Origin: Rhodobacter capsulatus SB 1003 | GTDB lineage: Bacteria; Pseudomonadota; Alphaproteobacteria; Rhodobacterales; Rhodobacteraceae | Assembly: GCF_000021865.1 (NCBI RefSeq) | Contig: NC_014034.1 | Span: 2,400,001-2,432,000, forward strand | Reading direction: 5' to 3' | DNA: 32,000 nt | Shown: positions 1,700 to 22,030 of the stretch, piece after piece | How the letters are laid out: each line of letters begins with the position of its first letter | Numbering within the stretch: the stretch's first letter is position 1 | Translations under genes and position numbers: made by a program | Notes under the pieces: generated by a model | Database searches by the model: none | The model's input: the letters and a program-made list of their open reading frames with translations, nothing else | What the model was told of the DNA's origin: nothing

Positions 1700-1816
1700 A
1701 TGCTCGACGGACGCCTCGACCCCGACCTGATCCGTCTTCTGGCCCCGCGCGCCGGGGACTTCCGCCCGCTGCCGCGCTGGCTGGCCCGGCTGCTGACCGG
1801 CCGGGGGCGGGCATGA
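1700..1816 (+). CDS. Small basic protein, 38 aa (MLDGRLDPDLIRLLAPRAGDFRPLPRWLARLLTGRGRA)
   Basis: Strong GAAGGAGA Shine-Dalgarno 6 nt upstream of the ATG at 1700. High GC3. Its stop overlaps the next ATG (ATGA at 1813-1816). Confidence 0.5.
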   Translation: MLDGRLDPDLIRLLAPRAGDFRPLPRWLARLLTGRGRA

Positions 1817-3150
1817 CCGCCGCGCCCCCGCTTCGTCGGCATGTGCTGGTCATCGGCGGCGGCGCCTCGGGCGTGCTGATGGCCTGTCACCTGCTGCGCG
1901 CCGCCCCCGAAACCCGCGTCACCCTGATCGAGCGCGGCCCCCGCATCGGCCTTGGACTGGCCTATGCGACCGAGGACCCGGATCATCTGCTGAACACAAG
2001 GGTGCTCAACATGAGCGCCCTGCCCGAGGATCCCGAACATTTCCTGCGCTGGCTCTGGCAGGCGAACCGGTCCGTCTCGGGGGCCTCCTTCGTGTCGCGC
2101 GCGACCTATGGGCGCTATCTGGAAAGCCTGCTGGCGCCCTGGGCGGCCGGGCCGCGGCTGCGGCTGGTGCAGGCCGAGGCGGTGCGGCTGACCGAGGCGC
2201 CGCCGGGCCGGGTGACGCTGAGGCTGGACGATGGCCAGACGCTGATCGCCGATCACGCGATCCTGGCCACCGGCCATCCCCGCCCCGAGGCGGTGCGGGG
2301 GCTGCAGGCCGATGTGAGGCTGCTGGATCTGGAACCCGGCGTGCCGGTGGCGATCCTTGGCACCGGGCTGAGCATGGTGGATCAGGTGACGACGCTGCTG
2401 AAATCCGGCCATCGCGGCCCGATCTTCGCGCTGTCGCGCCGGGGCTTGCTGCCGCGCGTGCATGGGCCGGGAACGCCGCTGGCCACTTCGCTGGGCGAGG
2501 TGCCGCTGGGCGCCCCCGCCTCGGTGCTGCTGCACTGGCTGCGTCGGCAGGTGCGCCGCGCCGAGATCGCGGGCGGCACCTGGCGCGATGCGATCGACGG
2601 GCTGCGGCCGCATGTGCAGGGGATCTGGAGCGCCCTGCCCGAGCCCGAACGCGCCCGTGCCCTGCGCCACGCCGCCGCCTGGTGGGAGGTGCACCGCCAC
2701 CGCATGCCGCCCGAAACCGCCCGCCACATCGCCAGCGCCCGGCAAAGCGGTCAGCTGCAGATCCTGCGCGGCGCCTTTGACCGGGTCACGCCGCATCCCT
2801 GCGGGGTCTGGCTGCAGTACCGCCCCTATCGGGAAACCGGCACCACCGCGCTGAACCTGGCCGCCGTGATCGATTGCCGCGGCGTGCGGCGCGATCCCGA
2901 AATCGGCGCGGGCCCGCTTCTGCGGCATCTGCTTGACGACGGGCTGGCGCAGATCGACCCGCTGCGGCTCGGCCTGGTCACCGACCGCAGCGGCCGGATT
3001 GTCAGCCGCGCGGGCACCACCAGCCGCGTCCTGCAGGCGATCGGTCCCGCCGCGCGCGCCGCCCTGTGGGAAATCACCGCCATCCCCGACATCCGCAGCC
3101 AGACCGCCCGGATCGCCGCCGAACTGTCGCACAGCCCCGCCCGCAGCTGA
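1813..3150 (+). CDS. FAD/NAD(P)-binding oxidoreductase (YdhS-like, NAD_binding_9-type)
   Basis: N-terminal dinucleotide-binding motif VLVIGGGASGV. A second Rossmann-like stretch VAILGTGLSMVD. 445 aa, translationally coupled to the upstream micro-ORF. Confidence 0.8.
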   Translation: MTAAPPLRRHVLVIGGGASGVLMACHLLRAAPETRVTLIERGPRIGLGLAYATEDPDHLLNTRVLNMSALPEDPEHFLRWLWQANRSVSGASFVSRATYGRYLESLLAPWAAGPRLRLVQAEAVRLTEAPPGRVTLRLDDGQTLIADHAILATGHPRPEAVRGLQADVRLLDLEPGVPVAILGTGLSMVDQVTTLLKSGHRGPIFALSRRGLLPRVHGPGTPLATSLGEVPLGAPASVLLHWLRRQVRRAEIAGGTWRDAIDGLRPHVQGIWSALPEPERARALRHAAAWWEVHRHRMPPETARHIASARQSGQLQILRGAFDRVTPHPCGVWLQYRPYRETGTTALNLAAVIDCRGVRRDPEIGAGPLLRHLLDDGLAQIDPLRLGLVTDRSGRIVSRAGTTSRVLQAIGPAARAALWEITAIPDIRSQTARIAAELSHSPARS

Positions 3151-3453: not shown

Positions 3454-4005
3454 ATGTCCCGTCAGGAAATCCTGCCCCCCGAGCTGCATCTGCCCGAGCT
3501 GCGCAGTGACGCGCCGCCCGCGCTGTCGAAACTGGAACGGCGCATGGTGCTGGCCTTCGTAGAGCGGCTGCTGAGCGCCGAGGGCCAGCCCGCCCCCTTC
3601 TTCACCCTGCTGCGCCAGACCGATGCCGCGCTGGCCGCGCTGATCGGCGCCGAGGCGGCCTCGGCGGCGCGGCCCGGTCCCTATGGCCGCTTCCCGCCGG
3701 GACCGCTGCGCGCCGAGGATCTGGACGGTCCGCCCTGGCGGATCCCGCCCGCGCTTTGCGCGCGGGTGGGCGAGCGGCTCTCGGTGGCGCTTGAATTCGC
3801 CTATCTGCTGGTGATGCATCCGGGCGATCTGCGCCGCGAAAGCCTGCTGGCGCTGAGCACCGGCGGCTGGAGCCCCGAAGGGATCGGCGCCCTGGCCGAG
3901 CAGATCGGCGCCGTCGCCAGCCAGACCCGGACCCTGGCAGAGCTGCACACCGCCGCCAGATCCGTCAGCACCCGACATGCCCCGGGCCGGACCCGGCTGC
4001 ACTGA
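3454..4005 (+). CDS. Hypothetical protein, 183 aa
   Basis: ATG preceded by an AGGAAAGG Shine-Dalgarno. High GC3 over the codons read by hand. No recognisable motif. Confidence 0.55.
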   Translation: MSRQEILPPELHLPELRSDAPPALSKLERRMVLAFVERLLSAEGQPAPFFTLLRQTDAALAALIGAEAASAARPGPYGRFPPGPLRAEDLDGPPWRIPPALCARVGERLSVALEFAYLLVMHPGDLRRESLLALSTGGWSPEGIGALAEQIGAVASQTRTLAELHTAARSVSTRHAPGRTRLH

Positions 4006-4222
4006 CCCATCCCCCCGAGACGCTGGCCCAGCATGTCGGCTGGCGCGCCGATGCCGCCACCGGCGGCGGCGCTGTTTTCGCGCTCCGAGCTGGGCACATC
4101 TCCCCCCGGATCATGAAACCGACGACGGATGTGCCGGAAAGGCGGGTCGCGGGCTTGAAAACTCAACGACATCCGGACCGATCCGGATCAGGCGCTGACG
4201 GCGCAGTAAGCCGCCGCACCGC

Positions 4223-4262
4223 AAAAACCCCCCTTCCGCGACCGGAAGGGGGGGGCATTTTT
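4223..4262. terminator. Bidirectional intrinsic terminator between convergent genes
   Basis: Perfect 11-bp stem CCCCCCTTCCG/CGGAAGGGGGG (4228-4238 / 4243-4253) with loop CGAC. It is flanked by AAAAA upstream and a T-rich tract (CATTTTT) downstream, so each strand sees a U-tract. Confidence 0.7.
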
Positions 4263-4294
4263 CGTCAAGCATTTGCGGGAGGTTGCCGCGGGGC

Positions 4295-5614
4295 CTATTC
4301 GGCCACGCGCGCAAAAACCGGCGGCACCGGGGCCCGGCTTCGCAGGGCAAGGGCCGCCTGCGGCGCGGGCGCAAGCGCCAAAAGCAGCGCCGCAAGGACC
4401 CGCTCCGCCCCCGCCCGCCCGCTCAGACCGGCCCCCAGCACCTCGAGCCCCGGGGCCGCGCCCAGAACGACGGGGCAAAGCCCCCGCGCCGCCGCGATCG
4501 CCGCCGCGGAGGCACCCCCGAGCACCAGATCGGCGCCGCTCTCGTCCAGAAGCCGCGCCAGATCCGCCCTGTCCGCGGCGCAGGTCAGGCCGGTATCGGC
4601 CAGGGGCGCCCGGACCCCCTCGGGCGGGCTGTCGGTCAGGATCGCGCGCACCGGCCAGCCCAGCGTCCCGGCCAGAAACCGCGCCAGCGCCCCGGCGCGC
4701 AGGCTGCCATCGGCCACCACGACCCGGCGCGGCGCCAGCACCGCCAGCCGCTCCAGCACCGCATCGAAACGCCAGCCCTGCTGCGCCCGTTCGCGCGCCA
4801 GACTGCCCTCGGCGCCCGCGTCAAGCGGATGACCGAGGCGGTCGGAAAGCCTCCGCACCAGAGCCTCCGCCGCCTCGGCCCCCACCGGCAGCCCGTCCGC
4901 CACGAGCACCGGGATCCCATGCCGCGCCGCCAGCACCTCGGCGGGCGCCGTGCCCCAGGGCGAGAGCACAAGGCTCAGCGCCGCCCCCGCCGCCGCTTCG
5001 AGCGACGCCAGACCGCCCTCGGGGCCGAAGATCGGATTGGCCGCAAGGCCGACCCCCTCCAGCAGCCGCGACAGCGTCTCGATCTCGGCCAGCCAGCCCG
5101 GATCCAGCCCGGGGGCGATGCCGAACAGGTTCACCAGCGGCCGGTCGGCACGGGTCGGCGCGGGCGCGAGCTGGGCCAGAAGACCGGCCAGCAGCCGGGC
5201 ATGGCCCTCATGCGCGGGGCCGTGAAACCCGGCCGTCGGCACCGCCACCACTCGCTCGCCCTGCGCCGTCAGCTCCTTCACCATGGCGCCGACATCATCG
5301 CCGATCATCTCGGCCGGGCAGCCGGTCAGCACCGCCAGCATCCCGCCCTCGAGCACCGCAAGGGCGTTCTTCATCTCCTCGCGCAGCCGCGAGGTGCCGC
5401 CAAAGACCACATGCTTGTCGGCCATGTTGGTCGCGGCGATGCGCGGCAATCCGGGCGGCGCACCATAGCGCCCGCCGCCGGCCGAAAGCCCCGCCCGCAG
5501 CGCGCAGCCGGGGGTGGAATGGACGACGACCGTGACCCCGGGGATCGCCGCCGCCGTGTGAAGCGCGCCGTGCAAGGCGCAGCCACCAAAGGGAAAAATC
5601 GCCGGGCGACCCAT
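4295..5614 (-). CDS. isrK: Nitrogenase-like component 1, NifK/NifN-like subunit (isrK/nflK-type)
   Basis: Oxidoreductase/nitrogenase component-1 signatures: HSTPGC and LTGCPAEMIGDD, plus an extra N-terminal FGGCALHG. The start overlaps the D-subunit stop (TGATG at 5612-5616). Confidence 0.85.
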   Translation of the reverse strand: MGRPAIFPFGGCALHGALHTAAAIPGVTVVVHSTPGCALRAGLSAGGGRYGAPPGLPRIAATNMADKHVVFGGTSRLREEMKNALAVLEGGMLAVLTGCPAEMIGDDVGAMVKELTAQGERVVAVPTAGFHGPAHEGHARLLAGLLAQLAPAPTRADRPLVNLFGIAPGLDPGWLAEIETLSRLLEGVGLAANPIFGPEGGLASLEAAAGAALSLVLSPWGTAPAEVLAARHGIPVLVADGLPVGAEAAEALVRRLSDRLGHPLDAGAEGSLARERAQQGWRFDAVLERLAVLAPRRVVVADGSLRAGALARFLAGTLGWPVRAILTDSPPEGVRAPLADTGLTCAADRADLARLLDESGADLVLGGASAAAIAAARGLCPVVLGAAPGLEVLGAGLSGRAGAERVLAALLLALAPAPQAALALRSRAPVPPVFARVAE

Positions 5615-6969
5615 CAGCGCACCTCCTGCTTGATATGCCAGTCTGGGCTGCGTTTCAGCCAGCCCGGGGTATAGCCCGGCCGCGCGTTTTGCACCGCGCT
5701 GCGGACCAGGGCCCAGCGGGCAAGGGCGATGTCGACCGCCTCTGTCAGCACCTCCGGGGCCGCCGCGCCGATCAGCCGCGCCGGGTCCAGCACCGCGGCG
5801 GGCAGACCCTGCCGCAGCGCCACCACCACCGCATCGCCCGCGCCCAGCAGCAGATCGGGCGCAGTGCGGCGCAGCAGGCCCGCCAGTTCAAAACCCTGCC
5901 CCTCGCCGACATGGATCTGCAGATCCGGCCAGCGCTCGGCCAGGCTGCCCAGCGCCGCGGCATGGCTGCGATCGAGATGCGGCACCGAGAGCACCGCCAC
6001 CGTCCCGCCCAGATCGCCGATCAGCTCTGCCGCGGCCAGCCCCCAGGCCGTGGGCAAGGCCAGCGCGAAGCGCCGCCCCGCAAGCGGTTCGGACAAGGGG
6101 CGCGGCGGTGCAGGCGGAACCGCCACCCCCCCCAGCGCCGCGACCCGGCGCAGCACCGCCACCGTCGCCTGCGCCCCCAGGGGCAGCGCGACATCAAGCC
6201 GGGTCACGCCAAAGCGCGTCTCCAGCCCCTCGGCGAAAAGACCAAGCAGATCGGGCGCCAGAACGAGGCTTGCCTCGGCCCGGCCCGCAAGGGCGATCTC
6301 GGCGACGCGCGCCCCCGCGGGCAGGATGTTCACCCGCCAGCCCAGCCCTTCGATCTGGCCCGCCAGCGCCGCAAGCTCCGGGCTGCGGGTGCTGGTGAGC
6401 AGGTTCAAAAGCCCCGGTTCGCGCGGGCCGTTCTGCGTCTCGACCAGCTGCAAAAGCGCCTCTGCCGCCGCATCGCCCCCGGTCGCGGGCACGGCCGAGC
6501 GGACCCCCTCGGTGCGGACCCAGACCACCGGCTTGCCCAGCTCCGGGCCAAGCGCCGCCACGGTGGCGCGGATGTCGTCGGAATTGATCGCGACGACCGG
6601 GCTGCCCAAGACCGCGATCGCCGCCACCGGGCAGGCGGCATCCAGCGCGCGGAGGGTTTCCGCCAGCACCTCGCCCGAGCCGAGCACGGTGTCGCGCTGA
6701 TCAAGATCGGTCACCGCCAGCGGCGCGGGCCCGGGGGCACGGACGCCACAGCCGCGCGGCCCGTGCACGACAAGACCCAGATCGGGGATTTCCGACAGGA
6801 TCGCCAGCGCCGGGCGCAGATCGTCGGGGGCGGCTTCGCTGAAGCTGCGGATCCGCCGCGGCGGCGTGCCCGCGGCGAATTCGGCCGCCAGATCGGCGGC
6901 GCGGCCAAGAAAGGCCTGGGTCGCCTCGGCCCGGGTCTCGCGCGGCTCCAGTCTGGGACGACGGGCCAT
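5614..6969 (-). CDS. isrD: Nitrogenase-like component 1, NifD/NifE-like subunit (isrD/nflD-type)
   Basis: HGPRGCG motif and overall NifD/BchN-like layout. The ATG at 6969 lies 1 nt after the NifH-like TAA stop, with GGAG upstream, and is preferred over the ORF-track start at 7008. Only two Cys in the whole protein. Confidence 0.85.
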   Translation of the reverse strand: MARRPRLEPRETRAEATQAFLGRAADLAAEFAAGTPPRRIRSFSEAAPDDLRPALAILSEIPDLGLVVHGPRGCGVRAPGPAPLAVTDLDQRDTVLGSGEVLAETLRALDAACPVAAIAVLGSPVVAINSDDIRATVAALGPELGKPVVWVRTEGVRSAVPATGGDAAAEALLQLVETQNGPREPGLLNLLTSTRSPELAALAGQIEGLGWRVNILPAGARVAEIALAGRAEASLVLAPDLLGLFAEGLETRFGVTRLDVALPLGAQATVAVLRRVAALGGVAVPPAPPRPLSEPLAGRRFALALPTAWGLAAAELIGDLGGTVAVLSVPHLDRSHAAALGSLAERWPDLQIHVGEGQGFELAGLLRRTAPDLLLGAGDAVVVALRQGLPAAVLDPARLIGAAAPEVLTEAVDIALARWALVRSAVQNARPGYTPGWLKRSPDWHIKQEVR

Positions 6970-6970
6970 C

Positions 6971-7843
6971 TTACGCGCTCCGCGCCGCGGCGGCGCGTTC
7001 GGCGCCAAAGATCCGGTCGCCCCAGTCCCGCGCCCAATCCTTCAGATCGGGACCGTTGAGGGGCTTCGGCAGCCGGGTTTCCAGATCCCCCGTCACGCGC
7101 CGCGCCAGTTTGCGGTAGATCTCGGCCTGATCGGAATAGGGCGCGGCCTCGATCACCGTCTGGCCGTAAAGCTCGGCCTGCGCGACGTCGACGGACCGGG
7201 GCACATAGCCCACCACCTCGGTGCCGGTGCGATGGGCGAAATCGTCGATCAGCCCGCGGGCATGATCCAGCTGCAGGCTGTTGGCGATGATGCCGCCCAG
7301 CCGCGCCCCGCCCGAGGGCGCATATTTGTCGATCGCCTTGAAGAGATTGTTGGCGGCAAAGATCGCCATGAAATCGGAACTGGTGACGACAAAGGCGCGG
7401 TCCGCGATGCCGTCGCGGATGGGCACGGCAAAGCCGCCGCAGACGACATCGCCCAGCACGTCATAAAGCACATAATCGGGGGCGAAGGTCTCGAAGACGC
7501 GCAGCTCTTCGAGCAGATCGACCGCGGCCGAGATGCCGCGCCCGGCGCAGCCCACCCCCGGCACCGGCCCGCCCGCCTCGATGCACAGAACGCCCCAGAA
7601 ACCGACGGCGGAAATGTCTTCCAGCTTCGGTTTGCGGGCACGGTCGCGCAGGCTGTCCAGCACGGTGGGCAGTTCTGCCCCGCCGCGCAGGATGGTGGTG
7701 GAATCCGATTTCGGATCGCAACCCACCTGAATGACGCGGTGGCCCGCTTCGGCCAAGGCGGCGGCGATGTTCGAGGTGGTGGTGGATTTGCCGATGCCAC
7801 CCTTGCCGTAAATGGCGATGTGGCGGGGGGTCTGGATGCTCAC
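6971..7843 (-). CDS. isrH: NifH/BchL-family ATP-dependent Fe protein (isrH/nflH-type)
   Basis: P-loop GKGGIGKST. Both [4Fe-4S] ligand contexts are present (GVGCAGRG and DVLGDVVCGGFA). GTG start at 7843 with AAGGA 8 nt upstream. Confidence 0.93.
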   Translation of the reverse strand: MSIQTPRHIAIYGKGGIGKSTTTSNIAAALAEAGHRVIQVGCDPKSDSTTILRGGAELPTVLDSLRDRARKPKLEDISAVGFWGVLCIEAGGPVPGVGCAGRGISAAVDLLEELRVFETFAPDYVLYDVLGDVVCGGFAVPIRDGIADRAFVVTSSDFMAIFAANNLFKAIDKYAPSGGARLGGIIANSLQLDHARGLIDDFAHRTGTEVVGYVPRSVDVAQAELYGQTVIEAAPYSDQAEIYRKLARRVTGDLETRLPKPLNGPDLKDWARDWGDRIFGAERAAAARSA

Positions 7844-7868
7844 GGGGCTGTCCTTTCAGGGGCGGAAA

Positions 7869-7888
7869 GGGGGCGGCGCACCGCCCCC
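7869..7888 (-). other. Intercistronic GC-rich stem-loop between the radical-SAM-like gene and the NifH-like gene
   Basis: 8-bp stem GGGGGCGG/CCGCCCCC with loop TGCG on the minus strand, followed only by TTTCC. The U-tract is too short for a strong terminator. Confidence 0.4.
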
Positions 7889-7892
7889 GCAA

Positions 7893-9119
7893 TCACTGGG
7901 CGGCGACGGCGGTTTCGGCGAAGACCGGCAGGGTTTCCGCCTCGATCCGCCAGATGTCATGCTGCAGGCTCGTCACATCGGCGTTGCTGTCGTAAAGGTT
8001 CGCCCAGCTGAACCCGGCCTTTTGCCAGATCGCCGCGATCTTGTGGCCAAGGTCGAGATACCAGCCCGGTTCCGGCGCGCGATGGCCCTCAAGGTCGGAG
8101 CCCGGATTGGGGCACCAGATCGAGGCGGTGCCGACCGCGCCCTTGTCGGCAAGGTATTGAATCCCCGCCAGAAGGCTTTTCTTCGGCTCGATGCCGCCGA
8201 CGAAATTCGAGCGCACATTGCCATGCCCGAAGACGCCCACCGAATATTCGATCGCCTTCAGCCAATGGTCCCAGCCGCCCGAGTCCCGCGCCTTGCCGGG
8301 GCAGATCGCGTTATAGATGCCCTTGTCCCAGAATTCGAGATTGAGCCCGACGGTGCGGTAGCCCGCTTCCTTGAAACGGTCGAGATTGCGCAGATCGATG
8401 GGGGCGGCGACGACGGCGGTGCCGTTGAAATCCTCGACCCCCGCATATTTGCGCAGCGCATCGGCGACATCGAGGTAATATTCCAGCTCGCGCCGTTCCG
8501 GGATCACGCCGCCGGTGATGTTGACGTGATCGACCAGCCCCGCCCGATGCGCCTCGGCATAGGTTTCGCCGATCTGACGCGCGGTCTTCCAGAAGATCCC
8601 GGTCTTTTCGCCATAGGTGTCCTTGGTGAAATTGATGTTGCAAAACAGGCAGTCCTCGCCCTTCGCCTTGTAGGAGCACTCGTTCGAATAGGCGACGAAG
8701 AACTGCCGTTCGGAGCCCAGCGTGGCGATGGTGGACATCGCCACCCCGTCCGAGGTGCGCTTGCCGTAGAAGGCGGGCCGGTCGGGGAAGAAGGCCTCGG
8801 CCAGTTCCTCGTCGCCGCGCACGACGATGGTGCGGTTGCCGTCCAGCTCGATCCGGTCGCGCGCCTCGGGGTTCAGCCGGAACGGCACGACAAGGCCGTG
8901 ATCAAGGCGGAAATAGCTCGGCTGCTCCTCGTCATGGGTGACAAAATCCATCTCGAAGAGCGTGTGGACCTGTTCTTGCGTCCTGATGCCCGGGGCGATG
9001 TGGGCCAGCGCCTCGGGGCTGATCGACACGCCATCGGTGTAAAGCCGCGCCTTCAGCGCGAGTTCGGCCCAAAGCCGATCCTTGAGGCCAAGCGGACGGG
9101 GGGGAAGGGAAGCATGCAT
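7893..9119 (-). CDS. isrB: Radical-SAM-like enzyme with variant Cys motif (isrB/nflB-type)
   Basis: ECSYKAKGEDCLFCN gives C-X8-C-X2-C in the position where radical SAM enzymes carry CX3CX2C. TIM-barrel-like downstream blocks (GLNLEFWD, FVGGIEP). The ATG at 9119 has an AAGGA Shine-Dalgarno; the ATG at 9218 has none. Confidence 0.75.
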   Translation of the reverse strand: MHASLPPRPLGLKDRLWAELALKARLYTDGVSISPEALAHIAPGIRTQEQVHTLFEMDFVTHDEEQPSYFRLDHGLVVPFRLNPEARDRIELDGNRTIVVRGDEELAEAFFPDRPAFYGKRTSDGVAMSTIATLGSERQFFVAYSNECSYKAKGEDCLFCNINFTKDTYGEKTGIFWKTARQIGETYAEAHRAGLVDHVNITGGVIPERRELEYYLDVADALRKYAGVEDFNGTAVVAAPIDLRNLDRFKEAGYRTVGLNLEFWDKGIYNAICPGKARDSGGWDHWLKAIEYSVGVFGHGNVRSNFVGGIEPKKSLLAGIQYLADKGAVGTASIWCPNPGSDLEGHRAPEPGWYLDLGHKIAAIWQKAGFSWANLYDSNADVTSLQHDIWRIEAETLPVFAETAVAAQ

Positions 9120-9214
9120 CGGGTCATCCTTGGGAAAGCGTTGCAAAGGCTGCGCAGGGTCGGCCTGCGCGCGCTTCGGTCTGGGCTGTGCTGGGCGCCG
9201 ATAGACGGCAAATT

Positions 9215-9232
9215 CCATCGATATTTAGATGG
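9215..9232. promoter_or_regulatory. AT-rich palindrome upstream of the isrB-like gene (CCATC-GATATTTA-GATGG)
   Basis: Inverted repeat CCATC/GATGG with an 8-nt AT-rich spacer, about 100 nt upstream of the ATG at 9119. A GATAGAC half-motif lies next to it at 9200-9206. Confidence 0.3.
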
Positions 9233-9361
9233 CACGAACCCCAGTCCGGTTCCATTCCAAGTTGCCGGCCCCGCGGGGAAGGATCGCCCTGCGCGAAACC
9301 GGCCTTGAAGCAAGGATTTTCCGCGGCCCCCCCCGGGCCGCCCGCGACGGCGCAGGCCCGC

Positions 9362-11134
9362 TCAGCGCGGCTGCGGCCGCATGTCGGCCGGATCGATCCC
9401 CGCGACCACGACGGGTTTCGTCATCGCATCGCGGCGGAACGGCTCGCCCAGTTCCTGATTGATCAGCGCCTCGATCAGCGTGGTCTTGCCCGCCGCCTGA
9501 TCGGCCAGCGCCTTGCGCAGCGCCTCGGTCAGCTCCTCCATCGTGCGCGCGACGACGCCCTGCAAGCCGCAGGCCTGCGCGATCCCCGCGTAGCTGACCT
9601 GCAGATCCAGCTCTGTTCCGACGAAATTGTCGTCATACCAAAGGGTTGAGTTGCGCTTTTCGGCGCCCCACTGGTAGTTGCGAAAGACGACCATGGTGAT
9701 TGCGGGCCAGTCGGCACGGCCGATCGCGGTCAGTTCGGTGACCGAAATCCCGAAGGCGCCATCGCCCGCAAAGCCGACCACGGGGGTCTCGGGACAGGCG
9801 ATCTTCGCGCCGATGATCGCGGGCAGGCCGTAGCCGCAGGGGCCGAACAGCCCCGGCGCCAGATATTTCCGCCCCGCCGCGAAACTGGGATAGGCATTGC
9901 CGATGGCGCAGTTGTTGCCGATATCCGAGGAGAGGATCGCCTCGGGCGGCAGGGCGGCGGTGATCGCGCGCCAGGCCATGCGCGGGCTCATCCAACCGGG
10001 TTTCGCGGCGCGGGCGCGTTCGTTCCAGCTCGTGCCCGGATCGTCCTCCTCGTGATCCATCGAGGCGAGTTCCTGCGCCCAGCGGCTTTTCGTGGTGGCA
10101 ATCCGCGCCGCCCGCTCGGCCCGGTCTTGATCGCCGGCCTGCGCGCCCAGCCGCGCCAGGATCCCCCGCGCCACCGCCCCGGCATCGGCCGCAATCCCCA
10201 AAGTGACCGGCCGCGTCAGACCGATCCGGTCGGGGTTGATGTCCACCTGGATCACCGCCGCGGCTTTCGGCCAATAATCGATGCCATAGCCCGGCAGGGT
10301 CGAAAACGGATTGAGCCGCGTGCCCAGGCACAGCACCACATCGGCCTGTGACATCAACTGCATGGCGGCTTTCGAACCGTTGTAGCCCAAGGGCCCCGCG
10401 AAAAGCGGATGGCTGCCCGGAAAGGCGTCGTTGTGCTGATATCCGGTGCAGACCGGGGCCTCGAGCCGCTCGGCCAGCGCCACGGTGTCGGGGATCGCTT
10501 CGGCCAGCACCACCCCGGCGCCGTTCAGGATCACCGGAAACCGCGCGCTTGACAGCAGCGCCGCCGCCCGGTCCAGCGCCTGCGCATCGGGCGCGGGCCG
10601 GGGCAGATCGACGCCCTGCGGCAGCTCGATGTCGATGATCTTGGTGAACATGTCCCGCGGCAGGTTGATCTGCGCGGGCGCCGAGGCGCGGCGGGCCTTG
10701 CGGATCACCCGGTCCAGCACCTCGGCGATCCGGGCCGGGTCGCGCAGCTCTTCCTGCCAGCAGACCATGTCGCGAAACAGCGCCATCTGCTCGACTTCCT
10801 GAAAACCGCCCTGCCCGATCGTCCGGTTCGCCGCCTGCGGCGTCACCACCAGCATCGGCGTGTGATTCCAGTAGGCGGTCTTCACGGCGGTGACGAAATT
10901 CGTCACCCCGGGGCCGTTTTGCGCGATGATCATCGCCATCCGCCCCGAGGCGCGGGTGAAGCCGTCGGCCATCATCCCGCCCGAGCCCTCATGCGCGCAG
11001 TCGAAAAACCGGATGCCCGCACGCGGGAACAGATCCGAGATCGGCATGAAGGCCGAACCGATGATGCCAAAGGCGGTGTCGATCCCGTGGCGCTGCAATA
11101 CCTTGACGAAGGCTTCTTCCGTGGTCATCCGCAT
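9362..11134 (-). CDS. xsc: Sulfoacetaldehyde acetyltransferase (ThDP-dependent)
   Basis: The N-terminus MRMTTEEAFVKVLQRHGIDTAFGIIGSAFMPISDLF matches Xsc as recalled, and the protein has a ThDP-enzyme layout. AGGAGA Shine-Dalgarno 6 nt before the ATG at 11134. Context with tpa and tauR. Confidence 0.9.
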   Translation of the reverse strand: MRMTTEEAFVKVLQRHGIDTAFGIIGSAFMPISDLFPRAGIRFFDCAHEGSGGMMADGFTRASGRMAMIIAQNGPGVTNFVTAVKTAYWNHTPMLVVTPQAANRTIGQGGFQEVEQMALFRDMVCWQEELRDPARIAEVLDRVIRKARRASAPAQINLPRDMFTKIIDIELPQGVDLPRPAPDAQALDRAAALLSSARFPVILNGAGVVLAEAIPDTVALAERLEAPVCTGYQHNDAFPGSHPLFAGPLGYNGSKAAMQLMSQADVVLCLGTRLNPFSTLPGYGIDYWPKAAAVIQVDINPDRIGLTRPVTLGIAADAGAVARGILARLGAQAGDQDRAERAARIATTKSRWAQELASMDHEEDDPGTSWNERARAAKPGWMSPRMAWRAITAALPPEAILSSDIGNNCAIGNAYPSFAAGRKYLAPGLFGPCGYGLPAIIGAKIACPETPVVGFAGDGAFGISVTELTAIGRADWPAITMVVFRNYQWGAEKRNSTLWYDDNFVGTELDLQVSYAGIAQACGLQGVVARTMEELTEALRKALADQAAGKTTLIEALINQELGEPFRRDAMTKPVVVAGIDPADMRPQPR

Positions 11135-11184
11135 CGGTCTCTCCTGAGATTTTCGGCCAATCAACCCCGGAGCGGCGCGAAATC

Positions 11185-11217
11185 TTAGGTCCAGAGCACG
11201 AAATCGGATGGGGCCAG
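11185..11217 (-). promoter_or_regulatory. Candidate TauR operator upstream of xsc (TTAGGTCCAG-N13-ATGGGGCCAG on the plus strand)
   Basis: The decamer at 11185-11194 is identical to the one at 14162-14171. A degenerate second repeat sits at the same 23-nt register. The proximal repeat lies 51 nt from the xsc ATG, compared with 58 nt at tpa. Confidence 0.5.
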
Positions 11218-11218
11218 A

Positions 11219-12673
11219 TCAACGCAGGGCGCGGGCGATGCGGGCGATGCCCTCGGGGATCGCGGCGGGGCCGATCGAGGAATAGGCGAGGCGATAGAAA
11301 TTGCGCCGCTCGCGCGCCGGATCAAAGAACACCCGGCCGGGTTCGATCAGCACCCCCTCGGCGCGCAGGCGCAGCGCCAGGTCTTCGGTATCGACCGCCC
11401 CGGGCGCCTGCATCCAGAACGACGAGCCCCCGAAACCGCCCTGCCCCGCGATCTGCAACCCGTTGTCTTCGATGGCTTTTGTCATCACCTCGCGGCGCAG
11501 GCGATAGGCCGCCTTCATCCGCGCCACCAGCGCATCGTAATGGCCAAGCGACAGGAACAGCGCCAGCGTGCGTTGCAGCTGCCCCGGCGGATGGCGCAGC
11601 ACGGTGGCCCGCAGCGCCCGCACCGCCGCAACGAAAGGCGCGGGGGCGACGAGATAGCCCAGCCGCAGCCCCGGAAACAGCGATTTCGAGAACGAGCCCA
11701 CATGCACGACGCGCCCGCCCGCATCGAGCGATTTCAGCGAGGGCGCGGCCGATTGCAGGAAGGACATTTCGAATTCGTAATCATCCTCGAGGATCAGGAA
11801 ATCCCCGGCTTCCGCCGCCGCCAGAAGTGCCAGCCGACGCTCCACCGGCAGGGTGGCATTCGTCGGGCAATGATGGCTGGCGGTGGTGACCACCAGCTTG
11901 AGCCGCGCGGGCAGCTGCGCGGGCACCAGCCCCCGGTCATCGACATCGACCGAAAGCACCTCGGCGCCGGTCGTGCCCAGAACCGCGCGCGTGCCCGGAT
12001 AGCCCGGATTTTCCATCGCCGCCCGTTCCCCCGGACCCAGCAGAACCTGCGCCGCCAGCCAGAGCCCGTTCTGCGCCCCCATGGTGATCAGCACCTCGGA
12101 GGGCACGGCCGCAATGCCGCGACGGGGCAGGATGTGGCGCAGGATATATTCGACGAGCAGCGGATCGTCTTCGTCGTAGCAATCCGCCGAAAGCCTGTGA
12201 AACTCGCGCCGGCCAAGGGCTTGCAGCGCACAGGCCCGCCAGTTCTGATGGTCGAAAAGTTCGGGATCGGCCTGCCCGTAGATGAAGGGATAGCGATAGA
12301 GCGACCAGTCGCGCGGCCGGTCGGGGCGCGGCAGGCCCTGCGCGCGGGGGTGCAAAAGCCGGGCCCAGTCCGTCCGGGCACCGTCCCGGGGCAAGGGCCG
12401 GGCCTTGCGCGCATCGGGGGCGGCGGCGGAAACGAACGTGCCCGACCGCCCGCGCGCCAGCAGGTAATCCGAGGCCACCAGATCGGCATAGGCGAGCGTC
12501 ACGGTGATGCGGGCGACGCCCAGATGCGCCGCCAGCGCCCGGGTCGAGGGCATCCGGTCGCCCGGGCGAAACCGGCCCGAAAGGATCCCCTCGGTCACCA
12601 TCTGGCGCAGGCGGTGCTGCAGCGATCCCTGCCCGCCGGGCGCCAGAAAGAAGCTTTCGACCGGAATGGCCAT
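11219..12673 (-). CDS. tauR: MocR-subfamily GntR regulator (wHTH plus class-I aminotransferase-like domain), taurine regulator
   Basis: N-terminal GntR wHTH (RMPSTRALAAHLGVARITVTLAYADL) fused to a roughly 350-aa PLP-fold domain. Located between tpa and xsc. Confidence 0.9.
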   Translation of the reverse strand: MAIPVESFFLAPGGQGSLQHRLRQMVTEGILSGRFRPGDRMPSTRALAAHLGVARITVTLAYADLVASDYLLARGRSGTFVSAAAPDARKARPLPRDGARTDWARLLHPRAQGLPRPDRPRDWSLYRYPFIYGQADPELFDHQNWRACALQALGRREFHRLSADCYDEDDPLLVEYILRHILPRRGIAAVPSEVLITMGAQNGLWLAAQVLLGPGERAAMENPGYPGTRAVLGTTGAEVLSVDVDDRGLVPAQLPARLKLVVTTASHHCPTNATLPVERRLALLAAAEAGDFLILEDDYEFEMSFLQSAAPSLKSLDAGGRVVHVGSFSKSLFPGLRLGYLVAPAPFVAAVRALRATVLRHPPGQLQRTLALFLSLGHYDALVARMKAAYRLRREVMTKAIEDNGLQIAGQGGFGGSSFWMQAPGAVDTEDLALRLRAEGVLIEPGRVFFDPARERRNFYRLAYSSIGPAAIPEGIARIARALR

Positions 12674-12690: not shown

Positions 12691-12717
12691 GCTGGACCCA
12701 TGAAGGATAGGTCCAGC
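12691..12717. promoter_or_regulatory. Inverted GGTCCAG repeat between tpa and tauR (GCTGGACC-N11-GGTCCAGC)
   Basis: Perfect 8-bp arms. Each arm carries the same GGTCCAG core as the tpa and xsc repeats. It lies 18-44 nt upstream of the tauR ATG and could alternatively act as an RNA hairpin. Confidence 0.45.
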
Positions 12718-14161: not shown

Positions 14162-14194
14162 TTAGGTCCAGTTTCCCCGAAGCCTTAAGTCCAG
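14162..14194 (-). promoter_or_regulatory. TauR operator: direct repeats TTAGGTCCAG-N13-TTAAGTCCAG (CTGGACYTAA on the tpa strand)
   Basis: Two 10-nt direct repeats (9 of 10 identical) with starts 23 nt apart, in the tpa/tauA divergent region. Consistent with my recollection of the direct-repeat TauR site reported at the R. capsulatus tpa promoter. Confidence 0.7.
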
Positions 14195-14270: not shown

Positions 14271-14429
14271 GCGGGCCCGAAGAAGAATTCCCCTTCGCCC
14301 CCGCCCCGCGAGAGATTTTTCCTGCCGTTCGGCCCGCGCCTTTGGAATGGCATCCGGGCCGCGGATCGGCTCATTTCACAAATGACGATGGATTTAATGA
14401 ACATTCCGCCACCTCTGAAAGGACCGACC

Positions 14430-15425
14430 ATGACCAAAGCCCTGAAACGTGCCGCGCTTTCGGCGCTTGCGCTGCTGGCCGCAAGCAGCGCCGCCACCGC
14501 GGCCCCCGACGAGATCACCGTGGCCTGGTTCCTTGAATGGCCGCTGCCGTTCGAGCAGGCCAAGGTCGATGGCACCTTCGAGAAGGAACTGGGCGTCAAG
14601 GTGAACTGGCGCGCGTTCGACACCGGCGTGGCGATGTCGGCCGCCGCCGCCGCGGGCGATGTGCAATTCCTGATTTCGCAAGGGGTGCCGCCCTTCGTCA
14701 CCGCGACCTCGGCCGGGCAGGATCTGAAGGCCATCGCCATCGCGGTGAGCTACTCGGAAAACGACAATTGCGTCGTGCGCAAAGACCTTGAAATCACGAA
14801 GGAAAATGCGAAAGATCTGATCGGCAGGAAGGTCGGCGTACCGCTGGGCACCGCGGCGCATTACGGCTTTCTCAAGCAGCTCGAACATTTCGGGCTGGAG
14901 GCGAGCCAGCTGCAGGTGGTCGATCTGACGCCCCCCGATGCGGCGGCGGCGATTGCGCAGGGCAATATCGACGTCTTCTGCGGCTGGGGTGGCGCGCTGG
15001 CCCGTGCCAAGGATTACGGCAACGTGCTGCTGACCGGCGCCGAAAAGGAAGAGGCGGGCATTCGCGTCTTTGACGTGATCTCGACGCCCGGCGCCTTTGC
15101 GGCGGAAAACCCCGATCTGGTGACGCGGTTCCTCAAGGTGGTGAACGACGAAAACGCCGCCTATCTGGCCGATCCCGACAGGTTCATCCCGGTGCTGGCG
15201 AAGGACTCGGGTCTGGACGAGGCGGGCACCAGGGCGCAGCTGGCGGGCTTTGCCCTGCCCACGATCGAAGAAAAGCTCTCGGACAAATGGCTGGGCGGCG
15301 GGTTGCAGGCCTATCTGAAATCGGTCGCCGATTTCTTCGTCACGACGCAGAACATCCCCGCGGCGCTGGAAAGCTATGAGGGCGCGGTGGACGCAAGCTA
15401 TCTCGAGGCCGCCTCGAAACTCTGA
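14430..15425 (+). CDS. tauA: Taurine ABC transporter periplasmic binding protein
   Basis: Signal peptide MTKALKRAALSALALLAASSAATA. TauA/SsuA-type blocks (WRAFDTG..AAAAGDVQF). AAGGA Shine-Dalgarno 8 nt before the ATG at 14430. Confidence 0.85.
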   Translation: MTKALKRAALSALALLAASSAATAAPDEITVAWFLEWPLPFEQAKVDGTFEKELGVKVNWRAFDTGVAMSAAAAAGDVQFLISQGVPPFVTATSAGQDLKAIAIAVSYSENDNCVVRKDLEITKENAKDLIGRKVGVPLGTAAHYGFLKQLEHFGLEASQLQVVDLTPPDAAAAIAQGNIDVFCGWGGALARAKDYGNVLLTGAEKEEAGIRVFDVISTPGAFAAENPDLVTRFLKVVNDENAAYLADPDRFIPVLAKDSGLDEAGTRAQLAGFALPTIEEKLSDKWLGGGLQAYLKSVADFFVTTQNIPAALESYEGAVDASYLEAASKL

Positions 15426-15510
15426 CGCTTCCGTCCCGGACCTTCGGCGGCGCGGGGCCCTCCCCGCGCCTTTCCCCGTTCCGCCCCCCGTTCAGACACC
15501 CGGTGTTCCC

Positions 15511-20318: not shown

Positions 20319-20340
20319 TCACGTTCTCCTTCTTGGGGTG

Positions 20341-20372
20341 CAGAAAACCATCCCGCGGACGCGCCGCGGGAT
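20341..20372 (-). terminator. Terminator/attenuator-like hairpin between cysE and the encapsulin gene
   Basis: On the minus strand: 9-bp stem ATCCCGCGG/CCGCGGGAT with loop CGCGT, followed by GGTTTTCTG. It ends 22 nt upstream of the encapsulin ATG, abutting its Shine-Dalgarno region. Confidence 0.45.
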
Positions 20373-20397
20373 TGGCAGGTTGAAAATGTGTTCTGTG

Positions 20398-21357: not shown

Positions 21358-21389
21358 GCTGCCTCCTTGGCTGAAATTCCTGCCTTCAA

Positions 21390-21437
21390 TCCGTCGCCCC
21401 GGTGCCGCGGCCCCAGTCCGTCGTCCCCGGTGCCGCG
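21390..21437. repeat. Tandem 20/21-nt direct repeat in the rhodanese-cysE spacer
   Basis: TCCGTCGCCCCGGTGCCGCG (21390-21409) and TCCGTCGTCCCCGGTGCCGCG (21417-21437). They are identical apart from one extra T, and their starts are 27 nt apart. Confidence 0.5.
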
Positions 21438-21438
21438 C

Positions 21439-21906: not shown

Positions 21907-22003
21907 GGCAACTCCCTGTGGCAAGCGGACATCGCGGGGCGGGACGGCGCGGCGGGGATGCCCCGCCCGCCTCTTCCGGCTGGGAGAACCGGAACACGAG
22001 AAT

Positions 22004-22030
22004 TCACGATTGAGAAGATAGATATTAATC
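22004..22030 (+). promoter_or_regulatory. Operator/promoter-like motif, copy B: TCACGA-N7-GATAGA-T-ATTAATC
   Basis: 21 of 27 positions match 981-1007. It sits in the only AT-rich patch of the 307-bp region upstream of the rhodanese-cysE-encapsulin operon, 98 nt from the rhodanese ATG. Confidence 0.4.

What the first reader, a model, noticed from the sequence alone, without database searches (positions are those of the whole stretch)
4295..9119. Nitrogenase-like reductase operon (radical-SAM-like plus NifH/D/K-like genes) directly downstream of xsc in a sulfonate locus
Four co-directional, tightly packed genes encode a NifH-type Fe protein with an intact P-loop and both cluster cysteines, a NifD-like/NifK-like pair, and a radical-SAM-like protein. 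No nif maturation genes (nifB/E/N/V/Q etc.) or bch/chl genes are present in the window. Instead the operon follows tpa-tauR-xsc on the same strand, 242 nt after xsc, and lies next to tauABC. That context argues for C2-sulfonate chemistry (reductive C-S cleavage) rather than N2 fixation or tetrapyrrole reduction. From memory, two related systems are known. MarBHDK is a methylthio-alkane reductase in Rhodospirillum rubrum. nflBHDK, renamed isrBHDK, has been genetically linked to anaerobic isethionate assimilation in Rhodobacter capsulatus. To my knowledge the actual reaction, cofactor and role of the radical-SAM partner remain unresolved, so this is the most mechanistically interesting element in the window.
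Basis: partly seen in the sequence, partly recalled or inferred. Interest (0 to 1): 0.88.

Follow-up and report, generated by a model that had tools for sequence, protein, structure and literature searches.

The report
Known isethionate reductase operon isrBHDK
This stretch is the published isrBHDK operon of Rhodobacter capsulatus SB 1003, a nitrogenase-like enzyme plus a radical SAM protein that frees sulfite from the sulfonate isethionate without oxygen; it is a rediscovery, although the enzyme's chemistry is still unsolved.

Summary
Four tightly packed genes lie on the minus strand. They are isrB (7893-9119), isrH (6971-7843), isrD (5614-6969) and isrK (4295-5614), 242 nt downstream of xsc.

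All four proteins are identical, residue for residue, to ADE85967-ADE85964 of Rhodobacter capsulatus SB 1003. In that strain isrBHDK was defined genetically as isethionate reductase (Morimoto et al. 2024, mSphere).

My tests exclude genuine Nif, Bch/Chl or Cfb membership. The closest solved relative is the methylthio-alkane reductase MarHDK. IsrD lacks the P-cluster and L-cluster ligands of MarD. IsrB is not NifB-like: it has a CX8CX2C motif, a HydE/LipA/BioB-type barrel and no set of auxiliary-cluster cysteines.

Three points refine the picture:
- isrBHDK has no TauR box. It shares a conserved promoter box with tauABC instead.
- Adjacency to xsc is confined to the Rhodobacter capsulatus/viridis group.
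- In other phyla, IsrB-type clusters often carry metK, an SDR gene, extra IsrB paralogs and SAM riboswitches. This hints that IsrB is a SAM-consuming catalyst rather than a cofactor maturase.

The reaction, the cofactor and the role of IsrB remain biochemically unresolved.

The parts
7893..9119 (-). isrB: variant radical SAM protein, 408 aa, with a CX8CX2C cluster motif at Cys148/157/160 and one further invariant Cys273
   Evidence: PF04055 and NF045502 (E = 2e-127). Exact match to ADE85967. Cys conservation in 44 homologues. AlphaFold model with pLDDT 93; best folds are LipA, HydE, PylB, BioB and HydG, with no NifB in the top 50.
6971..7843 (-). isrH: NifH-type Fe protein, 290 aa, GTG start, with P-loop GKGGIGKS and [4Fe-4S] ligands Cys99 and Cys135
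   Evidence: PF00142 at E = 2e-95. The nifH equivalog scores 370 bits against a cut-off of 394. Best PDB sequence match is MarH 9fmg_D at 388 bits, against at most 282 bits for NifH. Exact match to ADE85966.
5614..6969 (-). isrD: NifD-like catalytic subunit, 451 aa. Only Cys74 is conserved; Pro124, Ala238 and Gly378 replace the cluster ligands of MarD and NifD
   Evidence: PF00148. Exact match to ADE85965. Alignment to MarD. Family-wide read-out of columns. The model's best structural match is MarD, TM 0.81.
4295..5614 (-). isrK: NifK-like catalytic subunit, 439 aa, with Cys12, Cys37 and Cys99
   Evidence: PF00148 at E = 3e-60. Exact match to ADE85964. MarK 9d9u_C scores 148 bits against at most 47 bits for any other chain. 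Cys positions.
9210..9263 (-). Candidate isrB promoter/operator: AACTTGGAATGGA (9251-9263), then 23 nt, then TAAAT (9223-9227), then ATCGATGGAATTT (9210-9222)
   Evidence: The box is invariant upstream of isrB in 7 alphaproteobacterial loci. TTGGAATGG occurs exactly twice in the window, upstream of isrB and of tauA. The composite pattern recurs upstream of tauA in L001 and L003. There is no Rfam match. Its function is inferred, not shown.
9127..9131 (-). Ribosome-binding site AAGGA, 7 nt before the isrB ATG at 9119
   Evidence: Read from the sequence and conserved in the Rhodobacter orthologues.
4228..4253 (-). Intrinsic terminator hairpin (11 bp, 9 G-C) with a T-run, 42 nt after the isrK stop. 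It is bidirectional and faces the convergent gene at 3454-4005
   Evidence: Terminator scan. RNA fold of -39.5 kcal/mol, z = -2.5.
9362..11134 (-). Context: xsc, sulfoacetaldehyde acetyltransferase, upstream on the same strand and a separate transcription unit
   Evidence: TIGR03457 at 899 bits against a cut-off of 676. A TauR box lies at 11185-11194. RNA-seq and knock-out data are in PMC11423573.
14342..14350 (+). Context: second copy of the TTGGAATGG box, upstream of tauABC (14382-17576)
   Evidence: tauABC is co-induced with isrBHDK according to PMC11423573, Table 1.

Best explanation
The region is the isrBHDK operon of Rhodobacter capsulatus SB 1003, which encodes isethionate reductase, a Group IV-F nitrogenase-like system.

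Shown in the literature for this very locus:
- All four genes, plus the SsuCAB importer (outside the window), are needed to use isethionate as sole sulfur source.
- The reaction releases sulfite, because the isethionate sulfite-lyase IslAB can replace IsrDK.
- IsrD and IsrK co-purify and carry Fe-S chromophores.

Inferred from homology and from my tests:
- An IsrH dimer with one bridging [4Fe-4S] cluster (Cys99, Cys135) uses MgATP to pass low-potential electrons to an IsrDK complex.
- IsrDK holds a simple interfacial [4Fe-4S] cluster, with ligands IsrD Cys74 and IsrK Cys12, Cys37 and Cys99. It does not hold a P-cluster or an L-cluster.
- IsrB cleaves SAM at a CX8CX2C-bound cluster.
- I judge it somewhat more likely than not that IsrB acts catalytically on the substrate or a small molecule, generating a 5'-deoxyadenosyl radical at each turnover, and that it is not a NifB-type cluster maturase. 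IsrHDK would then supply the ATP-driven electron(s) that complete C-S cleavage to sulfite plus a C2 product (ethanol or acetaldehyde).

Regulation (inferred): transcription starts from the operon's own promoter, which carries a box shared with tauABC and not the TauR boxes of tpa, tauR and xsc. It ends at a strong terminator after isrK.
For: Identity:
- The four proteins are exact matches to ADE85964-ADE85967.
- The Cys numbering equals that printed in the paper.

Function:
- Genetics and RNA-seq are in PMC11423573 and are reviewed in PMC13474568.

Family placement:
- Scores fall below all Nif, Bch and Cfb cut-offs.
- The best PDB sequence and fold matches are MarH, MarD and MarK.

Cluster ligands:
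- MarD Cys270 aligns with IsrD Ala238, and MarD His429 with IsrD Gly378.
- About 55 IsrD-type representatives share Cys74, Pro124, a non-Cys residue at 238 and the W444/K447 tail. The next-best group has Cys124 and Cys238.

IsrB:
- It matches NF045502 and no NifB model.
- Only four Cys are invariant.
- Its fold resembles LipA, HydE, PylB, BioB, HydG and ThiH.
- It keeps 50-65% identity across phyla, against 26-42% for IsrD and IsrK.
- metK lies in 5 of 7 non-alphaproteobacterial clusters. One HDK set is accompanied by 2-3 IsrB paralogs in five loci. In L008, a SAM riboswitch, metK and an IsrB paralog form one string.
- A 50%-identical homologue has no NFL gene within 8 kb.

Regulation:
-.
Against: - No in vitro activity has been reported. 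The reductive nature of the reaction, the C2 product and the ATP and SAM stoichiometries are all unknown (PMC13474568).
- A plain [4Fe-4S] cluster is not an obvious catalyst for cleaving an aliphatic C-S bond. An unrecognised cofactor made by IsrB therefore remains possible, and HydE and HydG, which are structural neighbours of IsrB, are themselves cofactor maturases.
- metK adjacency could simply reflect a shared sulfur/SAM-starvation regulon. S-box riboswitches are present in the clostridial loci.
- metK, the SDR gene and the nucleosidase-like gene are all absent from the R. capsulatus locus and from the other alphaproteobacterial loci.
- The nucleosidase-like protein matches no specific family above its cut-off.
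- The promoter box is a sequence inference only.
Confidence: 0.9

Rival explanations
1. IsrB is a cofactor-biosynthesis (maturation) enzyme for IsrDK, as NifB and MarB are for their partners. This is the reading implied by the UniProt name 'Probable isethionate reductase cofactor biosynthesis protein'. IsrHDK would then cleave isethionate reductively on its own, using a special IsrB-made cofactor.
For: - The B-H-D-K gene order mirrors marBHDK, and isrB is essential.
- The structural neighbours of IsrB, HydE and HydG, build organometallic cofactor parts.
- A plain [4Fe-4S] cluster looks chemically insufficient for cleaving an aliphatic sulfonate (inference).
Against: - IsrB matches no NifB model, and NifB is absent from its 50 best fold matches.
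- Apart from the SAM cluster, only one further Cys is invariant, so there is no ligand set for auxiliary clusters.
- IsrD lacks the Cys and His that anchor the L-cluster in MarD.
- Two or three IsrB paralogs per single HDK set, and metK co-transcription, fit a one-off maturase poorly.
- The closest Swiss-Prot relative reported is BciD. From my own knowledge, BciD acts on a substrate.
Confidence: 0.35
2. The system is a radical lyase, not a net reductase. IsrB abstracts a hydrogen atom from isethionate, as the glycyl-radical enzyme IslA does. Sulfite then leaves and acetaldehyde is the product. IsrHDK only re-reduces the IsrB cluster or a radical intermediate.
For: - IslAB, which gives sulfite plus acetaldehyde, fully replaces IsrDK in vivo.
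- The carbon product has never been identified.
- An SDR gene lies next to IsrB in five non-alphaproteobacterial loci and could handle an aldehyde.
- An invariant Cys273 could serve as a hydrogen-atom donor (inference).
Against: - All known nitrogenase-like enzymes carry out net reductions.
- There is no direct evidence for acetaldehyde.
- No SDR gene occurs in the R. capsulatus locus, and the minimal set BHDK plus SsuCAB is sufficient in R. sphaeroides.
Confidence: 0.2
3. The genes encode a genuine nitrogenase, or a tetrapyrrole reductase of the DPOR, COR or CfbCD type.
For: Only shared Pfam families (PF00142, PF00148) and moderate fold similarity to DPOR and NifDK (TM 0.66-0.72).
Against: - The nifH equivalog scores 370 bits against a cut-off of 394. 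NifD and NifK score 44-45 bits against cut-offs of 654 and 427. BchL, BchX, BchB, BchN, BchZ and CfbC all fall far below their cut-offs.
- The FeMo-co and P-cluster ligands are missing.
- The window has no nifB/E/N or bch genes.
- The isr knock-outs affect isethionate use only, not taurine use.
Confidence: 0.01

Closest known systems
IsrBHDK isethionate reductase of Rhodobacter capsulatus SB 1003 (rcc02237-rcc02234; Morimoto et al. 2024, mSphere, PMC11423573)
   Same: Everything matches. The four proteins are identical in sequence. The gene order, the neighbours (xsc, tauR, tpa, tauABC, sufS2 and so on) and the Cys numbering are the same.
   Different: Nothing differs; this is the same locus. 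My additions are the promoter box shared with tauABC, the absence of TauR boxes upstream of isrB, the terminator, the family-wide IsrD signature and the gene contexts in other phyla.
MarBHDK methylthio-alkane reductase of Rhodospirillum rubrum (PDB 9FMG, 9D9U; PMC12552129)
   Same: It is a Group IV nitrogenase-like two-component system for anaerobic sulfur acquisition by C-S cleavage, with B-H-D-K gene order. It is the best solved relative of IsrH (388 bits), IsrK (148 bits) and IsrD (78 bits; fold TM 0.81).
   Different: MarDK carries a P-cluster and an [Fe8S9C] L-type cluster anchored by MarD Cys270 and His429. IsrD has Ala238 and Gly378 at those positions and keeps only one of the three alpha-subunit P-cluster Cys. 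MarB is a true NifB homologue; IsrB is an unrelated variant radical SAM protein. The Mar substrate is a thioether, not a sulfonate.
DPOR (BchLNB) and COR (BchXYZ)
   Same: Both are ATP-dependent Fe protein plus heterotetramer systems with a single interfacial [4Fe-4S] cluster and no complex cofactor, which is the arrangement predicted for IsrDK. Fold TM is about 0.70.
   Different: The ligand split is reversed: three Cys from BchN plus one Asp from BchB, against one Cys from IsrD plus three from IsrK. The DPOR/COR substrate is a conjugated tetrapyrrole. All sequence scores are far below family cut-offs.
IslAB isethionate sulfite-lyase (a glycyl-radical enzyme and its radical SAM activase)
   Same: It performs oxygen-independent release of sulfite from isethionate, uses a radical SAM partner, and substitutes functionally for IsrDK in vivo.
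   Different: The proteins are unrelated. IslAB has no ATP-dependent reductase component, and its product is acetaldehyde. No glycyl-radical enzyme was found among the ORFs scanned in this window.
BciD (bacteriochlorophyllide C7-methyl oxidase) and the MSMEG_0568-type 'variant_rSAM' proteins (NF045502, TIGR04043)
   Same: These are the closest characterised or curated relatives of IsrB and belong to the same variant radical SAM domain family.
   Different: IsrB scores 96 bits on TIGR04043 against a cut-off of 304, so it is not a member of that equivalog. The BciD substrate is a tetrapyrrole. I did not compare IsrB with BciD directly.

Membership tests
IsrBHDK isethionate reductase (Group IV-F NFL) | Sequence identity to the genetically characterised proteins rcc02234-rcc02237 | tested here: met
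   Exact look-up returns ADE85964, ADE85965, ADE85966 and ADE85967 of R. capsulatus SB 1003.
IsrBHDK isethionate reductase (Group IV-F NFL) | Co-directional B-H-D-K gene cluster | tested here: met
   The minus-strand genes run 9119 to 4295 with junctions of 49 nt, 1 nt and a 1-nt overlap.
IsrBHDK isethionate reductase (Group IV-F NFL) | IsrD keeps only the Cys equivalent to NifD Cys88 and lacks the FeMo-co/L-cluster Cys and His ligands | tested here: met
   Cys74 is the only invariant Cys. Ala238 aligns with MarD Cys270 and Gly378 with MarD His429. The signature Pro124, non-Cys 238 and W444/K447 is shared by about 55 representatives and separates them from the Cys124/Cys238 group.
IsrBHDK isethionate reductase (Group IV-F NFL) | IsrK keeps the three beta-subunit cluster Cys | tested here: met
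   Cys12, Cys37 and Cys99 are present. Cys37 and Cys99 align with Cys residues of MarK.
IsrBHDK isethionate reductase (Group IV-F NFL) | Fe protein with Walker A motif and two [4Fe-4S] Cys | tested here: met
   GKGGIGKS, Cys99 and Cys135 are present.
IsrBHDK isethionate reductase (Group IV-F NFL) | Required for anaerobic growth on isethionate, with release of sulfite | not testable with these tools
   Taken from the literature on this same locus (PMC11423573).
Nitrogenase NifHDK | Scores above the NifH, NifD and NifK equivalog cut-offs, with FeMo-co and P-cluster ligands present | tested here: not met
   nifH scores 370 bits against 394, nifD 44 against 654 and nifK 45 against 427. The ligands are absent.
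DPOR/COR (BchLNB, BchXYZ) and CfbCD | Scores above the respective equivalog cut-offs | tested here: not met
   BchL scores 225 bits against 345, BchX 195 against 331, BchB 58 against 490, BchZ 42 against 529 and CfbC 321 against 402. The CfbD marker scores 35 against 268.
Methylthio-alkane reductase MarBHDK | Six P-cluster Cys, L-cluster ligands Cys270 and His429 in the D subunit, and a NifB-type B protein | tested here: not met
   MarHDK is the closest solved relative, but the ligands are replaced and IsrB is not NifB-like.
NifB-type radical SAM cluster maturase (tested for IsrB) | NifB sequence motifs, and Cys/His ligands for the auxiliary K-clusters | tested here: not met
   No NifB model appears among the NCBIfam hits. 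There is no PDB sequence hit. NifB is absent from the top 50 fold matches. Only Cys148, 157, 160 and 273 are invariant.
Radical SAM superfamily (tested for IsrB) | A three-Cys motif for the SAM-binding [4Fe-4S] cluster on a TIM-barrel core | tested here: met
   PF04055 scores 34.1 bits against 29.5. The invariant motif is CX8CX2C, a variant of CX3CX2C. The barrel is superposable on LipA, HydE and BioB.

The most novel reading that the evidence does not exclude
IsrB is not a maturase. It is the SAM-consuming, substrate-activating half of a composite enzyme in which radical SAM chemistry is coupled to ATP-driven electron delivery by a nitrogenase-like module that has only a simple [4Fe-4S] cluster. 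The IsrB paralogs found beside a single HDK set in Clostridia, Chlorobiaceae and Anaeromyxobacter would then be interchangeable specificity modules for different organosulfonates. The clustered metK would recycle methionine to SAM.
Probability: 0.35. Interest if true: 0.8.

Novelty: already known. Interest (0 to 1): 0.3.

Why it matters
Isethionate and taurine are abundant sulfonates in marine and gut habitats. Isr is the third known oxygen-independent route for releasing their sulfur, and it is a new use of the nitrogenase scaffold.

The locus itself is published, so the scan adds no discovery. The open question is how an enzyme with an apparently plain [4Fe-4S] cluster and a non-NifB radical SAM partner cleaves an aliphatic C-S bond. 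My comparative data make the catalytic-IsrB hypothesis concrete enough to test in one reconstitution experiment. Those data are the missing auxiliary-cluster ligands, the linkage to metK and SAM riboswitches, and the multiple IsrB paralogs.

The shared isrB/tauA promoter box gives a handle on the unknown sulfur-limitation regulator.

Tried and rejected
- The longer isrB ORF starting at 9218 (441 aa) is rejected. The region is not conserved in frame among orthologues, the ribosome-binding site sits before 9119, and the named NCBI/UniProt entries are 408 aa.
- The TTG start of isrD at 7008 is rejected in favour of the ATG at 6969, which matches the 451-aa database entries and the published Cys74 numbering.
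- A riboswitch or leader RNA upstream of isrB is not supported. There is no Rfam hit at gathering threshold or at E up to 5.
- The isrB-isrH hairpin and the xsc-isrB hairpins fold no better than shuffled sequence (z = -0.15 and +0.45). I make no claim for them.
- The sigma-70 consensus scan found no promoter in 3900-9500.
- The 13-mer box has no other copy in the window at up to 3 mismatches. The tauA copy emerged only with the 9-mer core.
- IsrB against PDB by sequence gave nothing meaningful.
- The clostridial PNP_UDP_1 protein could not be assigned to MTA/5'-deoxyadenosine nucleosidases: 43 bits against a cut-off of 169. I do not rely on it.
- The SDR neighbours match only generic SDR and FabG-like models.
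- A literature search for the promoter motif was uninformative.
- I first translated the encapsulin gene in the wrong frame (19410-20318, no hits). The correct frame is 19388-20266.
- One context look-up (P0094) found no record.
- The antisense ORFs over the operon have no Pfam hits.

Full report
**1. Observation**

ORF listing and translation show four co-directional genes on the minus strand.
- isrK: 4295-5614, 439 aa.
- isrD: 5614-6969, 451 aa from the ATG. An upstream TTG at 7008 is not used in the database entries.
- isrH: 6971-7843, 290 aa, GTG start.
- isrB: 7893-9119, 408 aa.

Pfam and NCBIfam give Oxidored_nitro for K (E = 3e-60) and D (E = 1e-40). H matches Fer4_NifH (E = 2e-95). B matches Radical_SAM and the 'variant_rSAM' domain NF045502 (E = 2e-127).

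The junctions are a 1-nt overlap (D/K), a 1-nt gap (H/D) and a 49-nt gap (B/H).

IsrH has GKGGIGKS, Cys99 and Cys135. IsrK has Cys12, Cys37 and Cys99. IsrD has Cys74. IsrB has Cys148, Cys157 and Cys160, a CX8CX2C motif.

The long antisense ORFs have no Pfam hits.

The rest of the window holds the following genes:
- xsc, tauR and tpa on the minus strand;
- tauABC on the plus strand;
- a four-gene sulfur operon on the minus strand;
- an aldo-keto reductase, an AraC regulator, a UPF0029 gene and kdpABC-kdpD;
- to the left of isrK, a CMD-domain gene, an FAD/NAD-binding oxidoreductase and a Ser_hydrolase gene.

There are no nif maturation or bch genes among these.

**2. Identity**

An exact-sequence look-up finds all four proteins as ADE85964.1 to ADE85967.1 of Rhodobacter capsulatus SB 1003, whose chromosome is 3,738,958 bp. 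UniProt names them 'Isethionate reductase catalytic subunit beta/alpha', 'iron protein' and 'Probable isethionate reductase cofactor biosynthesis protein'.

The Cys numbering equals that printed by Morimoto et al. 2024 (PMC11423573). The window is therefore the type locus of isrBHDK.

That paper shows the following:
- The genes are induced 1149- to 4788-fold on isethionate compared with sulfate.
- Knock-outs of B, H and DK lose anaerobic growth on isethionate.
- islAB rescues the DK mutant, so sulfite is released.
- isrBHDK plus ssuCAB confers isethionate-dependent growth on R. sphaeroides.
- IsrD and IsrK co-purify, with an Fe-S absorbance.
- The xsc knock-out still grows on isethionate, and xsc and tpa are not strongly induced.

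A 2026 review places ISR in Group IV-F. It states that the cofactors are 'entirely unknown', that the reaction is not biochemically verified, and that the function of IsrB is 'obscure' (PMC13474568). I found no later biochemical report.

**3. Family tests run here**

All Nif, Bch and Cfb equivalog scores fall below their cut-offs. For example, nifH scores 370 bits against 394, CfbC 321 against 402, BchL 225 against 345 and nifD 44 against 654.

Among solved structures, the best sequence matches are the R. rubrum methylthio-alkane reductase chains. 9FMG is identified as Mar in PMC12552129, and 9D9U is labelled Mar in the PDB fold library.

| Isr subunit | Score against Mar chain | Best score against any other chain |
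|---|---|---|
| IsrH | 388 bits | 282 bits (NifH) |
| IsrK | 148 bits | 47 bits |
| IsrD | 78 bits | 31 bits (NifD) |

An AlphaFold model of IsrD (pLDDT 85.7) matches MarD best, with TM 0.81. DPOR chains follow at about 0.70 and NifD at 0.66-0.72.

In the MarD alignment, the L-cluster ligands Cys270 and His429 correspond to IsrD Ala238 and Gly378.

I ran a profile search of 1.84 billion representative proteins and read out the alignment columns. About 55 full-length representatives (at least 275 bits) share Cys74, Pro124, a non-Cys residue at 238 and the C-terminal W444 and K447. The next group (at most 253 bits) has Cys124 and Cys238, as expected for Mar/Nfa-type proteins. The Isr type is thus a sharply bounded family, and the window protein lies inside it.

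**4. IsrB**

- IsrB has no PDB sequence relative.
- The model is confident (pLDDT 93).
- The barrel superposes on LipA, HydE, PylB, BioB, HydG and ThiH, with TMq about 0.43. The N-terminal part of the protein is largely not covered by these barrel matches. NifB is not among the top 50 matches.
- In 44 homologues only Cys148, Cys157, Cys160 and Cys273 are invariant. There is therefore no ligand set for NifB-like auxiliary clusters.
- IsrB keeps 50-65% identity between R. capsulatus and Clostridia, Chlorobiaceae, Anaeromyxobacter and Deferrimicrobiaceae. IsrH keeps 70-77%, and IsrD and IsrK only 26-42%.

**5. Context elsewhere**

Synteny with tpa-tauR-xsc holds only in the R. capsulatus/R. viridis group (L001-L003). 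Cereibacter azotoformans and Rhodopseudomonas rhenobacensis have ABC/ssu-type transporter genes beside isrBHDK instead; at Rhodovulum strictum only a TauB-like ABC ATPase gene was detected.

Features of the seven non-alphaproteobacterial clusters that carry NFL genes:
- metK lies inside or next to the cluster in five.
- An SDR gene lies next to an IsrB gene in five.
- Two or three IsrB paralogs accompany a single H-D-K set in five.
- NMT1/ABC sulfonate-type transporter genes are the most constant neighbours.

In the clostridial loci, SAM riboswitches (about 95 bits) precede metK-isrB-SDR and a second isrB operon.

One 50%-identical IsrB homologue has no NFL gene within 8 kb.

A neighbour-joining tree shows that some paralog pairs are recent, as in Clostridium. 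The Anaeromyxobacter pair is ancient.

Neither paper I read on Isr mentions metK, and the 2024 paper mentions no nucleosidase or short-chain dehydrogenase either.

**6. Regulation**

Upstream of isrB, seven alphaproteobacterial loci share an invariant AACTTGGAATGGA box. About 23-25 nt further on lies TAAAT-NN-CGA.

The 9-mer TTGGAATGG occurs exactly twice in the window, upstream of isrB (9252-9260, minus strand) and upstream of tauA (14342-14350, plus strand). The same downstream box, AAAT-NN-CGATGGA(A)TTT, follows both copies. The composite pattern recurs upstream of tauA in two other Rhodobacter genomes. Both operons are co-induced in the published RNA-seq data.

The TauR consensus CTGGACYTAA (cited in PMC5320631) occurs four times, against 0.56 expected. 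All four copies are upstream of tpa, tauR or xsc, and none is upstream of isrB.

A strong terminator follows isrK.

These data explain why isrBHDK is regulated apart from xsc even though it lies 242 nt behind it.

**7. Mechanism**

Shown: sulfite release, the need for all four genes and for SsuCAB, and Fe-S chromophores in IsrDK.

Inferred:
- ATP-driven electron transfer runs from IsrH to a [4Fe-4S] cluster at the IsrD/IsrK interface, built from one Cys of IsrD and three of IsrK.
- An aliphatic sulfonate has no pi system to accept single electrons, and IsrD has no site for a complex cluster. IsrB must therefore contribute something essential.
- The missing auxiliary-cluster ligands, the relation to BciD, the metK and S-box linkage and the paralog multiplicity lean towards a catalytic, SAM-consuming IsrB. 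I put this at about 0.5 overall, of which about 0.35 is the full composite-enzyme reading.
- A maturase role (about 0.35) and a lyase-type chemistry giving acetaldehyde remain open.

**8. Verdict**

The finding is already known: it is the published type locus. It is of low interest as a discovery and of moderate interest as an unsolved enzyme.

Noticed in passing
window 17635-22290, minus strand: This is a family 2A encapsulin operon. It comprises a rhodanese (21439-22290), a serine O-acetyltransferase (20398-21357), the encapsulin shell protein (19388-20266; NF041162, 494 bits against a cut-off of 380) and a cargo cysteine desulfurase with an N-terminal extension of about 200 aa (17635-19434; NF041166, 843 bits against 800). 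The 2024 isr paper lists these genes as 'major membrane protein I' and 'sufS2', reports them induced more than 1000-fold alongside isrBHDK, and never mentions encapsulin.
   Followed up: partly
window 9252-9260 (minus strand) and 14342-14350 (plus strand); L001 2427-2473 and L003 2407-2453: A shared promoter-type element, TTGGAATGG-N24-29-AAAT-NN-CGATGGA(A)TTT, lies upstream of both isrB and tauA. These two operons are co-induced under sulfur limitation. The element is a candidate site for the still unknown regulator.
   Followed up: partly
window 11185-11194, 12707-12716, 14162-14171 and 14185-14194 (minus strand): Four TauR boxes (CTGGACYTAA) lie upstream of xsc, tauR and tpa. Four were found against 0.56 expected by chance. 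None lies upstream of isrB.
   Followed up: yes
L008 6373-9194; L012 1-1917 and 7530-9197; L010 8001-12337; L011 5971-9218; L014 6793-9206: metK (SAM synthetase) is clustered with IsrB-type radical SAM genes in Clostridia, a Bacillota MAG, Anaeromyxobacter and a Deferrimicrobiaceae MAG. In L008 it appears to be co-transcribed, with a 28-nt gap. In the two clostridial loci, SAM-I riboswitches sit in front of these operons.
   Followed up: partly
L008, L009, L010, L012, L014, L016: Two or three IsrB paralogs occur per locus, beside a single NifH/D/K-like set wherever the contig is long enough to show it. L009 and L011 also carry a distant variant radical SAM gene (about 26-30% identity) followed by a conserved ~155-aa protein of unknown function.
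   Followed up: partly
L015 8001-9242: An IsrB homologue with 50% identity stands alone. It has no nitrogenase-like gene within 8 kb and lies next to a very large glycoside hydrolase gene.
   Followed up: no
L007 (Cereibacter ovatus) 8188-11313; cluster members P0008, P0019 and P0033: The isr cluster appears to be decaying in some genomes. In C. ovatus, isrD is missing and isrH is truncated. Some complete R. capsulatus genomes carry truncated IsrK (153 aa), IsrD (312 aa) and IsrH (194 aa).
   Followed up: no
window 5614-5650 (IsrD residues 433-451): The IsrD C-terminal tail, GWLKRSPDWHIKQEVR, is nearly invariant across the Isr-type family (W444, K447) and is not conserved in the Mar-like group. 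The model predicts it with low confidence, which suggests a flexible tail that docks onto a partner.
   Followed up: partly
window 3454-4005 (plus strand) and 1813-3150 (plus strand): Two genes converge on isrK: a CMD-domain (carboxymuconolactone decarboxylase-like) protein (TIGR04029, 62 bits, below its cut-off) and an FAD/NAD(P)-binding oxidoreductase. Both are syntenic in L001-L003. By position they correspond to rcc02233 and rcc02232, which the paper reports as strongly induced; it tested only the rcc02232 mutant, which still grew on isethionate.
   Followed up: no
window 25041-31999 (plus strand): The kdpABC genes and the start of kdpD (potassium-transporting ATPase and its sensor kinase). 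They are unrelated to the finding.
   Followed up: no
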